Shown here piece after piece: positions 7,343 to 37,922 of a stretch of 37,922 bases of DNA. Below the pieces are notes generated by a model, which was given only the letters and a program-made list of their open reading frames with translations, did no database searches and was not told the origin of the DNA. Each line of letters opens with the position of its first letter. Position 1 is the first letter of the stretch. The stretch comes from Octopus sinensis (taxonomy: Eukaryota): positions 1-37,922 of the forward strand of contig NW_021829919.1 in NCBI RefSeq assembly GCF_006345805.1. Reading direction: 5' to 3'. A program made the position numbers and the translations under genes.

Positions 7343-7620
7343 TTATGTTTGCATGAAAAATACCACATTTAGTAGTGATGGGTTGTGCATTTGAAGAATG
7401 GTGAGTGCTTCCCTTATACATAATTTACACCTACCTAAGTTAGTGTTATATGAGGAGGATTCAGATTCAATGGACCATTTTAATGTATAGATTTTGTTCT
7501 CTACTTTGAGCTTGTGTATATAGTTAGCATGTATGGTAGCAGTTTTATATTTAAGTTCGTTAAAAGAGTTGATGTGATTTTGATATCTCCACTTGAAATA
7601 AGTGGTGCTACTGATATATA
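7343..7620 (-). pseudogene. Penelope-like GIY-YIG endonuclease fragment
   Basis: Motifs FKxRYxNHxxSF, Y(I)xxLK, KWSI, CxLCxxE and LLN recognisable in the translation. Confidence 0.8.
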
Positions 7621-7843
7621 TTTTATATATGTATTTATATATTTTCATGCTATCATATAAATTTGTCCTTTAAATCCATCTCTAATCAGAGTTGCATTTG
7701 TGGATTGAATTACCAGATCTTTTGTTTCTTCACATTTCATATTTATATCTTTTGTCTCAAGTTACTCTTCAGCATTTCTAAGTCCAAACCTCTACATTGT
7801 GAGAGAATTTCTAATCAATCTTCTTCCTCAAAACAATTATATG

Positions 7844-27545: not shown

Positions 27546-28254
27546 TCGAAGAGAGGGGAATGGAGGGATAGATAGACAGATAGATAGATCAATAGACAGA
27601 TAGATGCAGTAGAGTCCCGCATGTATAAATAATATGGTGAGTTGAAAAACTGCCATCAACTGAGATTATTGAAACAAATTGTTGACAAAAACTCGCTCTA
27701 GAGAGATTTAAAATGTAAAAAAAAAAAAGAAAAAAACCCCGACATGCAAGGGTGACAGCTTCAGTGAGATCAGTTGATCATTTTTGTACAAAAGACAATG
27801 TATATTGGAGTGGATGGGATTCCACACAGTTTCTGTCAATCAAATTCACTCATACGTCATTGGTTGGTCCGGGGCTACGGTGGAAGATGTTTGCCCAAGG
27901 TACCGCACAATGGGACAGAATGTGGTTGCAAAGTGAAGTTCTTAATAAAACGGTTGAGACTGTGCCCACATGTAGTATAGTGTAACGTAACATAGAGTAC
28001 AAATACCTTGATAGAGTACAAAATCTTTCGATGTAAGATAGTGTACAAATACTTTGATAGTAGCATGAAACTATGATTCAGTAGATATCATTGTTTCTGG
28101 TACAAAACACACACACATACATGCACAGAAATGTTCAAAACATGCCTATGTTTAAAATGTGTGGAGTACCATGATGAGATGCTGGTATCCATCCACTTTT
28201 TTGAGAAAATTAAGTTCTCTCTGGAGACAAAACGGCAACTACTCTAATTGGAAA

Positions 28255-28832
28255 AAGAGGGACATTACATGGTATAACCCACCATTGAACGTCATCACAA
28301 AATCTCGTACCACAGAGATATCTGCACCACTTCTCATACACCAGTTAATACTTTCTGAGTGTCCAAAGATTCCCCCAGCTACTCAACAAAAACAATGTGA
28401 AGAAGTGATCATTAGCTCTTTAAGGAATATGTCAGATGTCATTATCAACAATGTATTTAACCTACAGCTTCACAACAAGGGCTGTCATGCAGTTGCCACG
28501 ATAAAGAGATCTACTGCCTGAAAAATAAATGCCTAGCAAGAAACAAACATTGTATACCATAGCAAATGTTAAATAACTACCCAGATTGCTAGACAAAGCT
28601 GACAAAGAGACACACTTTAAAAATAGTCTGCATCAATGCAACAGCAACATTCACCATTCTCAAAAAAAAAAAAAACACTACATAATTGTCAAAATACATT
28701 TGGAAATCAAAGGATGGAGAAAGGAATGCAAACGTCATGTGGGCAATGTTAGACATGACACCAGCGTTTAGAAAGAAATCTAAGTCTTGCAACATCTGAC
28801 TAACTGAGAAGCTCTACATCATTATCCACCCA
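28255..28832 (+). pseudogene. Decayed Penelope-like linker + GIY-YIG endonuclease fragment
   Basis: Frameshifted translation gives KRDITWYNPP, KCLARN, FKN, LSKYIWKSKD and WAML...KSCNI*LTEKLYIIIHP, matching PLE motifs WFNPP, LSxYIWxLK and CxLCLxEK. Confidence 0.8.
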
Positions 28833-36304: not shown

Positions 36305-36535
36305 ATTTCTTTACTACCCACAAGGGGCTAAACACAGAGGGGACAAACAAGGACAAACAAAGGGATTAAGTCGACTACATCGAACCCAGTGCGTAACTGG
36401 TACTTAATTTATCGACCCCAAAAGGATGAAAGGCAAAGTCGACCTCGGCAGAATTTGAACTCGGAACGTAACGACAGACGAAATACGGCTACGAATTTCG
36501 CCCGGCGTGATAACGTTTCTGCCAGCTCGCCGCCT
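36305..36535 (-). mobile_element. SINE, family B (young), inserted in the piggyBac remnant
   Basis: TSD tgaacaatatata on both sides. Confidence 0.92.
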
Positions 36536-36571: not shown

Positions 36572-36969
36572 ATGCTGCTGTTGTTGTTAAGCAACAAGAC
36601 GGGTAAGGGTGATTAGGTGATGGTCTAGGGCTTAGGGGCGGGAGACTCCAAACCTTGGAAAAAAAAACTTTGGTCGTCTTGTTGTAGTCGAGGGCTCTTC
36701 GTTGACGCCCGACACCACTGAGAGGTGGCCCTCAAAGTCACTGGAAATGGAGATCTCCAGGTCCAATGAACAGATGCTGCTGTTGTTGTTGTTAAGCAAC
36801 AAGACGGGTAAGGGTGATTAGGTGATGGTCTAGGGTTTAGGGGAGGGAGACCCCAGACCTTGGGAAAAAAAAACTTTGGTCGTCTTGTTGTAGTCGAGGG
36901 CTCTTCATTGACGCCCGACACCACTGAGAGGTGGCCCTCGAAGTCCCTGGAAATAGAGATCTCCAGGTC
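36572..36969. repeat. ~200-bp tandem duplication replacing the piggyBac catalytic centre
   Basis: atgctgctgttgttgtt...gagatctccaggtc occurs at 36572-36763 and 36775-36969. Confidence 0.9.
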
Positions 36970-37334
36970 GAAATTTTTGAACGGCTGGACATAGTGCTGG
37001 AGATATATGGATCACCATACCTGATATCAAGATTCCAGTAGTTCCACAGTTGAGGAAGCTGCTCGATACCAAACATAATGTTTATAGAAAAAAAAGCTCA
37101 CGTTTCTACAGTATTGGTTGGCTACCATAGTGGATCAGGTCTTCCACAAATAGAAATTATGCGTTGAGCATTTGTTTCCTCCGCAACAGTTTCAAAAAAA
37201 CTTTTCGGTAAATATATATATATATATATACCGGAGTAAACACATAAATGTGAAACAAGGTGGAAAAAGGAGTACTCAAATACCAGTGGTAGAGTAATAT
37301 GCTTTATTTAAAGCAGCAGAAAATTCAACAAAAT

Positions 37335-37372
37335 CTGTTACTCTGAGTTTCTCGTTGCCGTTCATCAGACAG
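37335..37372 (-). ncRNA. Minimal type-I hammerhead ribozyme
   Basis: cugu CUGAUGA a cg-GCAA-cg a GAAA cuc-a-gag UA acag. Confidence 0.8.
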
Positions 37373-37395
37373 TTTTTGCTAGATTCTAGCAAAAA

Positions 37396-37432
37396 CTGTC
37401 TGATGAACGGCAACGAGAACTCAGAGTAACAG
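37396..37432 (+). ncRNA. Minimal type-I hammerhead ribozyme (one A of GAAA missing)
   Basis: cugu CUGAUGA acggcaacga GAA cucagag UA acag. Confidence 0.7.
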
Positions 37433-37463
37433 ATTTTGTTGAATTTTCTGCTGCTTAAATAAA

Positions 37464-37501
<38 letters not shown>

Positions 37502-37545
37502 TATACACATTATATACATATATACACATATATATACATATACAC

Positions 37546-37578
<33 letters not shown>

Positions 37579-37821
37579 TACATACACACGTATATATATG
37601 TATGTACATATCTATATATCCATATATACATGTAAATACATAAATAATAAAGGTAGCTTATTCACAATTTACAACCGAAAGGCAGAAGTCTATACGTCAC
37701 TAAAGTGACTAAGGGTGAGCAGCTGCACTGTTAGAAATAAGAGCCAAAACAACTCTTATCTACGAGAATGCACTTATCTTATGACTGACAAGGGAGGCAG
37801 GCTCCCTGTAGCATCCAGGGA

Positions 37822-37869
37822 AGCCAGATCACCTGTGATTTCGCATTTGATAAATGTTCATCAGTGGCT
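37822..37869 (-). ncRNA. Type-I hammerhead ribozyme
   Basis: agcca CUGAUGA a cauuu-auc-aaaug c GAAA ucac-ag-guga UC uggcu; all three stems present, AUC triplet. Confidence 0.85.
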
Positions 37870-37922
37870 CTCACACAGCTGCCTCGGAATAAGTTAGCTC
37901 GCCTTATCAGTTTATGATTTCC

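What the first reader, a model, noticed from the sequence alone, without database searches (positions are those of the whole stretch)
37680..37922. Highly structured retrozyme-like segment with a complete three-stem hammerhead
The HHR at 37822-37869(-) has a 5-bp stem I, 5-bp stem II and an extended stem III. Adjacent sequence forms more hairpins (gtcac-taaa-gtgac; ataagag...ctcttat nested in taagggtgag...cttatctta; gggag-gcagg-ctccc) and is more GC-rich than its flanks. Established: non-LTR retrozymes are tandem 150-400-nt structured units that yield circular RNAs. Inference: this may be one monomer, truncated by the window edge.
Basis: partly seen in the sequence, partly recalled or inferred. 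Interest (0 to 1): 0.7.

Follow-up and report, generated by a model that had tools for sequence, protein, structure and literature searches.

The report
Decayed hammerhead retrozyme copy, Penelope footprint
This is one old, likely inactive copy of a scattered 341-base protein-free repeat that carries a predicted self-cutting RNA motif, and the way its sister copies end suggests they were likely pasted in by a Penelope-type jumping-gene enzyme; elements of this kind are already known in animals.

Summary
The type I hammerhead at 37822-37869(-) is real, with cleavage site 37827/37826, but it is damaged: A10.1·C11.1 where 37 of 52 copies of its subfamily have G-C. The window is the whole contig, so it cannot be extended. 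The segment (37640-37915) is a copy of a dispersed ~341-nt ORF-less unit with over 1000 first-look candidates in the genome, often in partial tandems. Copies are about 79% identical to each other. None of 8 loci with two or more same-strand hammerheads has two intact ones, so the family looks dead. Three subfamilies show compensatory stem changes and keep a 12-nt palindromic stem III, which suggests cleavage as a dimer. 82 of 119 arms end at two fixed sites, mostly beside microsatellites. In 13 of 13 back-to-back pairs with both ends at these sites, one arm used each site. That is the published Penelope 'tail' footprint. No coding Penelope element was linked. Expression, circles and cleavage are untested. 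Verdict: a new member of the known metazoan non-LTR retrozymes. This scan has already noted similar families, possibly this one, elsewhere in this genome.

The parts
37640..37915 (-). Decayed copy of the ~341-nt retrozyme unit (unit positions 19-305, numbered on the natural monomer L004:1483-1823)
   Evidence: blastn 79% to the monomer; profile hit q19-305; 240 of 271 columns match the family majority
37822..37869 (-). Type I hammerhead motif: stem I 5 bp, core CUGAUGA/GAAA, AUC, predicted cut between 37827 and 37826
37843..37857 (-). Stem II with A10.1·C11.1 mismatch (subfamily: G-C)
37828..37839 (-). Stem III, 12-nt near-palindrome AUCACAGGUGAU (subfamily majority AUCACUGGUGAU); predicted dimer helix, weakened here
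   Evidence: self-duplex -11.2 against -14.4 kcal/mol for a copy with the majority sequence
37792..37806 (.). Small hairpin gggag/ctccc
   Evidence: sequence
37737..37759 (.). Hairpin ataagag/ctcttat; this region is shared by the subfamilies
   Evidence: sequence, alignment, 103 exact genome matches of the family 23-mer
37696..37709 (.). Hairpin gtcac-taaa-gtgac, immediately 5' of family end site B on the minus strand
37640..37650 (-). 3' end of this arm at family end site A (unit position ~305)
37465..37646 (.). (TA)n-type microsatellite abutting the 3' end; inferred target site
   Evidence: 38 of 49 site-A ends have a microsatellite within 40 nt
37916..37922 (.). Last 7 bases of the contig; 6 match the unit (position 341 on +, 328 on -): possible start of an inverted arm or a deleted tandem unit
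   Evidence: random 6-mers match 6.5% of the time, so a weak hint only

Best explanation
This is one decayed, likely inactive copy of a dispersed ~341-nt protein-free repeat with a type I hammerhead motif, a metazoan non-LTR retrozyme, which was likely copied into a TA microsatellite by a Penelope-like element's reverse transcriptase and endonuclease acting in trans. Shown: unit length, dispersal, partial tandems, lack of a linked ORF, the motif, compensatory changes between subfamilies, two fixed 3' end sites, back-to-back arms, microsatellite neighbours and old age. Inferred for the once-active ancestor: tandem copies were transcribed; two hammerheads paired through the 12-nt palindromic stem III and cut out monomers, which may have been circularised. 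A PLE enzyme nicked AT-rich DNA and primed reverse transcription at one of two internal sites about 50 nt apart (A ~305, B ~255, just 3' of a small hairpin), using one site for each arm in two-armed insertions. It copied through the cleavage site, so the template was an uncut multimer or a circle. This copy is an arm ending at site A.
For: 1056 and 1121 first-look candidates. Tandem periods 317-368 nt, 5 of 8 within 336-342. 41 of 119 arms run through site A into the next unit with no ORF between. 82 of 119 arm ends fall in two windows that cover 12% of the unit. Microsatellite within 40 nt for 38 of 49 A ends and 26 of 33 B ends, against 819 of 4300 random 40-mers. 28 divergent pairs, 0 convergent; of 13 pairs with both ends in A or B, 13 are A+B (p 7e-5). 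Subfamily 2 swaps pairs on both sides: I.3 C-G to U-A (7 of 8), II.1 G-C to A-U (7 of 8), II.2 C-G to G-C (6 of 8). The stem III palindrome is kept with different letters in three subfamilies. The optional tail on one inverted arm and two RT start sites are published PLE features (PMC3846280; PMC11167929; PMC8557442). Age: mean pairwise identity 79% over 987 pairs, CpG-like columns 0.72 against 0.89 elsewhere; 5 of 72 hammerhead regions fully canonical; 0 of 8 multi-hammerhead loci with two intact cores.
Against: No partner PLE was identified: the unit profile found nothing in 30 loci of one coding PLE group, and other PLE clades were not sampled. Rfam found no hammerhead. RNAalifold gave 0 consensus pairs on 25 copies. 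Five natural monomers folded as circles gave z from -2.26 to +1.09 on the sense strand, so a strongly paired circle is not evident in present copies. No TSD could be read (flanks are mostly microsatellite; 14 loci inspected by eye). Windows A and B were drawn after seeing the histogram, subfamilies were assigned by eye, and loci were chosen by best score or exact motif, so counts are biased. 15 of 28 pairs have at least one end outside A and B.
Confidence: 0.82

Rival explanations
1. The unit is the pLTR (solo or 5'-truncated) of a coding Penelope-like element whose ORF lies beyond the contig end or has not been sampled.
For: All the insertion marks are those of PLEs. The genome is rich in coding PLEs (10539 candidates). 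The upstream side of this copy is missing. bioRxiv 10.64898/2026.07.22.740005 reports 24 of 57 Xenopus retrozyme families homologous to 22 TEs, 21 of them PLEs, at their pLTR ends.
Against: 41 of 119 arms loop from site A back into the unit without an ORF. Only 3 of 1653 pairs of 5' flanks share junction-near sequence, each 42, 41 or 148 nt. 4 of 86 loci have a PLE protein hit, each 200 nt or more from the unit. No unit hit in 30 coding PLE loci.
Confidence: 0.1
2. The copy is a working source of circular RNA today, as in coral, mussel and axolotl.
For: The 11 conserved core letters and stem I are intact; this copy is one of 21 of 72 with an intact core. A second unit beyond the contig end cannot be excluded.
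Against: 10.1-11.1 mismatch, weakened palindrome, hammerhead helices at 0.09 probability or less; core columns only slightly more conserved than the rest (0.915 against 0.876); no young subfamily among the sampled copies (highest non-duplicate identity 89-90%).
Confidence: 0.05
3. The unit spread as a satellite or by DNA-level duplication, and the ends cluster only because they are AT-rich and microsatellites grew there later.
For: Sites A and B are AT-rich with TA steps.
Against: Equally AT-rich stretches (positions 1-20, 81-100, 321-341) hold 1 end each. Arrays are short (longest arm 952 nt) and dispersed. The A+B pairing in inverted arms is not expected from slippage.
Confidence: 0.03

Closest known systems
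Metazoan non-LTR retrozymes (Cervera and de la Pena 2020, PMC7229834: coral, mussel, axolotl 330/350 nt; Li, Clavereau and Pollet, bioRxiv 10.64898/2026.07.22.740005)
   Same: Unit of 150-450 nt, GC under 50%, one type I hammerhead per unit, dispersed monomers and short tandems, no ORF, coexisting PLEs.
   Different: This family appears dead; arrays are at most ~2.8 units; it often has back-to-back arms with two fixed ends, which I did not see described for retrozymes in the parts read; expression and circles are not shown.
EN+ Penelope-like elements: pLTR, inverted 5' copy and optional tail (PMC3846280, PMC8557442, PMC11167929)
   Same: Head-to-head inverted arms, 5' truncation, an extension on one arm only, AT-rich or microsatellite targets, two RT start sites.
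   Different: No RT/GIY-YIG ORF; the two ends are ~50 nt apart rather than 30-40; the hammerhead has a 5-bp stem II and a stem III rather than the minimal form.
Dimeric hammerheads with palindromic helix III (PMC4209133)
   Same: Short self-complementary helix III, predicted to work when two copies are near.
   Different: The palindrome here is 12 nt and could also close a 3-bp hairpin, so monomer activity in the ancestor is not excluded.

Membership tests
Metazoan non-LTR retrozyme | Type I hammerhead in each unit | tested here: met
Metazoan non-LTR retrozyme | Short unit (150-450 nt), GC under 50% | tested here: met
   341 nt, GC 39.9%
Metazoan non-LTR retrozyme | Tandem copies | tested here: met
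   Met for the family (25 of 119 arms longer than one unit); not testable at this locus because the contig ends
Metazoan non-LTR retrozyme | No protein-coding body | tested here: met
   one PLE group sampled
Metazoan non-LTR retrozyme | Self-cleavage of the transcript | not testable with these tools
   needs a bench assay
Metazoan non-LTR retrozyme | Accumulates as circular RNA | not testable with these tools
   only assembled contigs of guessed RNA runs were available
Active retrozyme (operational rule of Li et al.) | Two consecutive units with complete hammerheads | tested here: not met
   0 of 8 sampled multi-hammerhead loci; sample only
Autonomous EN+ Penelope-like element (pLTR) | Adjoining RT + GIY-YIG ORF | tested here: not met
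   upstream of this copy is off the contig
PLE-mobilised element | Inverted 5' arm, two alternative 3' ends, AT-rich targets | tested here: met
PLE-mobilised element | Target-site duplication | tested here: inconclusive
   flanks mostly microsatellite in 14 loci inspected
PLE-mobilised element | Sequence kinship to the pLTR of a partner PLE | tested here: inconclusive
   no hit in 30 loci of one PLE group; other clades not sampled

The most novel reading that the evidence does not exclude
In two-armed insertions of this retrozyme a PLE enzyme primes the two DNA ends of one break at two different, fixed sites on a small circular RNA (one just 3' of a 5-bp hairpin, one ~50 nt further on), never the same site twice, and rolls past the ligated cleavage site. 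Retrozyme insertions would then be a clean, ORF-free record of an asymmetric PLE dimer copying an RNA circle.
Probability: 0.3. Interest if true: 0.55.

Novelty: new member of a known kind. Interest (0 to 1): 0.22.

Why it matters
The locus itself is a fossil of a known class. The family adds one more case in which a retrozyme carries the Penelope insertion footprint, which supports the open proposal that PLEs mobilise animal retrozymes. The A+B rule gives a testable prediction for in vitro PLE assays. Younger families in the same genome, noted earlier by this scan, would be better material for that test. My searches ('retrozyme hammerhead octopus', 'octopus Penelope hammerhead', 'cephalopod retrozyme') listed no paper devoted to such a family, but the supplement of PMC7229834 and the bioRxiv supplements could not be read.

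Tried and rejected
Extending the window: the contig ends at 37922; contigs of three unlabelled, probably DNA, runs did not bridge the end. Expression: no RNA holder listed; five guessed-RNA runs gave only partial, diverged pieces and no contig spanning the unit; this is not evidence either way. Rfam: no hammerhead among the 150 of 207 rows shown for the window, 0 rows on the finding. RNAalifold: no consensus pairs. Pfam on four window ORFs: nothing significant; a Pfam accession recalled for a PLE domain is not in the library. Pile-up of 5' ends at the cleavage site, expected if self-cleaved linear monomers were the template: not seen (4 of 119, 3.8 expected). Tandem neighbours as identical products of one event: not readable, 75-85% identity in 10 same-locus pairs against a mean of 79%. 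A second element landing at a fixed site near this copy's 5' end: 9 arms with 5' ends at positions 14-26 share no junction sequence. Rows dropped before counts: duplicate places and haplotig-like duplicates (L011, L020, L025, L058, L059, L116, L118, L120, L124, L142, L154, L065, L067 and the repeats among L032-L061); hits under 30 bits. L122 gives two of the 28 pairs; L017 (A+B by eye) fell outside the pairing rule and is not counted.

Full report
Observation. The minus strand reads stem I AGCCA, core CUGAUGA (37864-37858), stem II, GAAA (37842-37839), stem III, AUC and UGGCU, spanning 37869-37822, with the cut at 37827/37826. Two details differ. The base of stem II is an A·C mismatch, and stem III is A15.1-U16.1 plus 3 bp and a 4-nt loop. 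The 263-nt segment folds better than shuffles (z -2.79; other strand -2.17), but the hammerhead helices are not part of that fold (pair probabilities 0.09 or less). Rfam gave no match. The three small hairpins are present; the outer stem is not predicted on either strand.

Context. The window is all of contig C6390 in a 2.72-Gb animal genome. Earlier scan notes call it an octopus; I did not verify that. The copy spans 37640-37915 and its 3' end abuts a (TA)n-type tract at 37465-37646. No ORF of 100 aa or more overlaps it. The last 6 matching bases of the contig hint weakly that the element goes on (6.5% chance).

Family. DNA searches gave 1056 and 1121 first-look candidates, 40 scored each. 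Exact motifs occur 13 times (hammerhead 26-mer), 20 times (18-mer) and 103 times (23-mer nearer the 3' end), with 0 for each reversed control. I analysed 86 distinct loci holding 119 arms. The natural monomer is 341 nt, 39.9% GC. Arms have a median length of 215 nt and a maximum of 952; 25 exceed one unit. 41 of 119 run through the main end site into the next unit, so the unit closes on itself without an ORF.

Age. 45 hammerhead-spanning pieces average 79% pairwise identity (987 pairs); apart from one duplicate pair the highest is 89%; ten same-locus pairs are 75-85%; CpG-like columns are the most eroded. Of 72 hammerhead regions in 59 loci, 51 have a broken core, 16 an intact core with stem defects (including this copy) and 5 are fully canonical; none of 8 loci with two or more same-strand hammerheads has two intact cores. 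Part of this sample was selected for an intact motif, so the true share is probably lower. I infer a family that is no longer active.

Evidence that the ribozyme once worked. Three subfamilies were assigned by eye (52, 8 and 9 regions; 3 intermediate). Subfamily 2 changes both sides of three pairs (I.3, II.1, II.2) and has AUA for AUC; subfamily 3 has an extra hairpin in loop II. Stem III is a 12-nt palindrome in each: majority AUCACUGGUGAU, AUCAGCGUUGAU and AUCAUCGAUGAU, with the fifth pair C-G, G-C or G-U, and U-A. That pair closes only a 2-nt loop in a monomer, so it fits a two-ribozyme helix, as described for metazoan hammerheads in PMC4209133 (passages). These are a few inherited events, not many independent ones. 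RNAalifold on 25 copies found no consensus pairs, and monomers folded as circles are not consistently more stable than shuffles.

Insertion footprint. 49 arm ends fall at unit positions 293-312 (site A) and 33 at 246-266 (site B), 82 of 119 in 12% of the unit. Site B lies directly 3' of the gtcac hairpin. Microsatellites follow 38 of 49 and 26 of 33 of these ends, against 14 of 37 other ends and 819 of 4300 random 40-mers. There are 28 divergent arm pairs in 27 loci and no convergent ones; 13 have both ends in A or B and all 13 are A+B (p 7e-5); 15 have an end elsewhere. 5' ends are scattered and do not pile up at the cleavage site (4 of 119, 3.8 expected); 78 of 119 arms cross it (sample biased to long arms). 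The windows were set after viewing the data. This copy ends at site A. The pattern matches published PLE anatomy: a tail on one of the inverted pLTRs (PMC3846280, passages; PMC8557442, passages) and two RT start sites with AT-rich targets, where uncut RNA was the main substrate (PMC11167929, parts 1-2 of 4). I saw the two-site idea first in earlier scan notes and then tested it here.

pLTR test. A remnant in the window that resembles a PLE endonuclease (recalled resemblance; no Pfam hit) retrieved 10539 candidates; five fetched regions hold open frames of 572-919 aa with RT-like and endonuclease-like parts read by eye. The unit profile found nothing in 30 such loci. 4 of 86 family loci have a hit to those proteins, none abutting the unit; 3 of 1653 pairs of 5' flanks share junction-near sequence. 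Only one PLE group was sampled, so the partner is unknown.

Mechanism. Shown: anatomy, dispersal, ends, age. Inferred: transcription of tandem copies, dimer-type self-cleavage, possible circularisation, and target-primed copying in trans by a PLE protein from site A or B. Circle and uncut multimer explain the read-through equally well; my data do not separate them. Expression could not be judged.

Comparison. It works like, and meets the sequence-level features of, metazoan non-LTR retrozymes (PMC7229834, passages and Discussion; bioRxiv 10.64898/2026.07.22.740005, parts 1-3 of 5; PMC8969392, passages). It fails the latter paper's rule for an active element in the loci sampled. Cleavage and circles are untested. 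The supplement of PMC7229834 and the bioRxiv supplements could not be read and may list related families; two of three supplementary files of PMC4209133 were searched with no hit for octopus or cephalopod.

Verdict. A real but decayed hammerhead in an old retrozyme family with a clear Penelope footprint: a new member of a known kind. This scan has noted the same architecture in several other families of this genome, and one note describes a decayed 342-nt family that may be this one (sequence look-ups found nothing). Interest 0.22.

Noticed in passing
window 37231-37467: A different, young element: head-to-head inverted arms, each with a minimal hammerhead (the + copy lacks one A of GAAA), one arm ~70 nt longer, set in TA repeats; 662 candidates, best copies 97-99% identical over the whole hairpin. 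It lies at the far end of the same TA tract as the finding.
   Followed up: partly
window 7346-7669 (-): Open frame resembling a PLE GIY-YIG endonuclease (recalled resemblance); 10539 candidates in the genome.
   Followed up: partly
window 28156-28521 (+): Short frame with a 'ITWYNPP' motif like the linker of the PLE open frames; probable PLE remnant.
   Followed up: no
L105, L107, L108 (3' of the ORF): Coding PLEs with asparagine-rich inserts and a hammerhead-like CUGACGA...GAAA motif with a long stem II; L107 ends in CACCTTATTAT, resembling site A of this family (CACCTTTATTAT). May be chance.
   Followed up: no
window 36573-36969: 206-nt tandem repeat, 1.9 copies, 94% identical, GC-richer than its surroundings.
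   Followed up: no
L018:1233-1461: A common ~230-nt repeat, also seen at window ~36310-36535, interrupts a tandem pair of units with an apparent ~14-nt duplication.
   Followed up: no
L111, L117, L119, L121, L122, L125, L128, L134: Subfamily with an extra GAUGC/GCAUC hairpin inside loop II of the hammerhead.
   Followed up: partly
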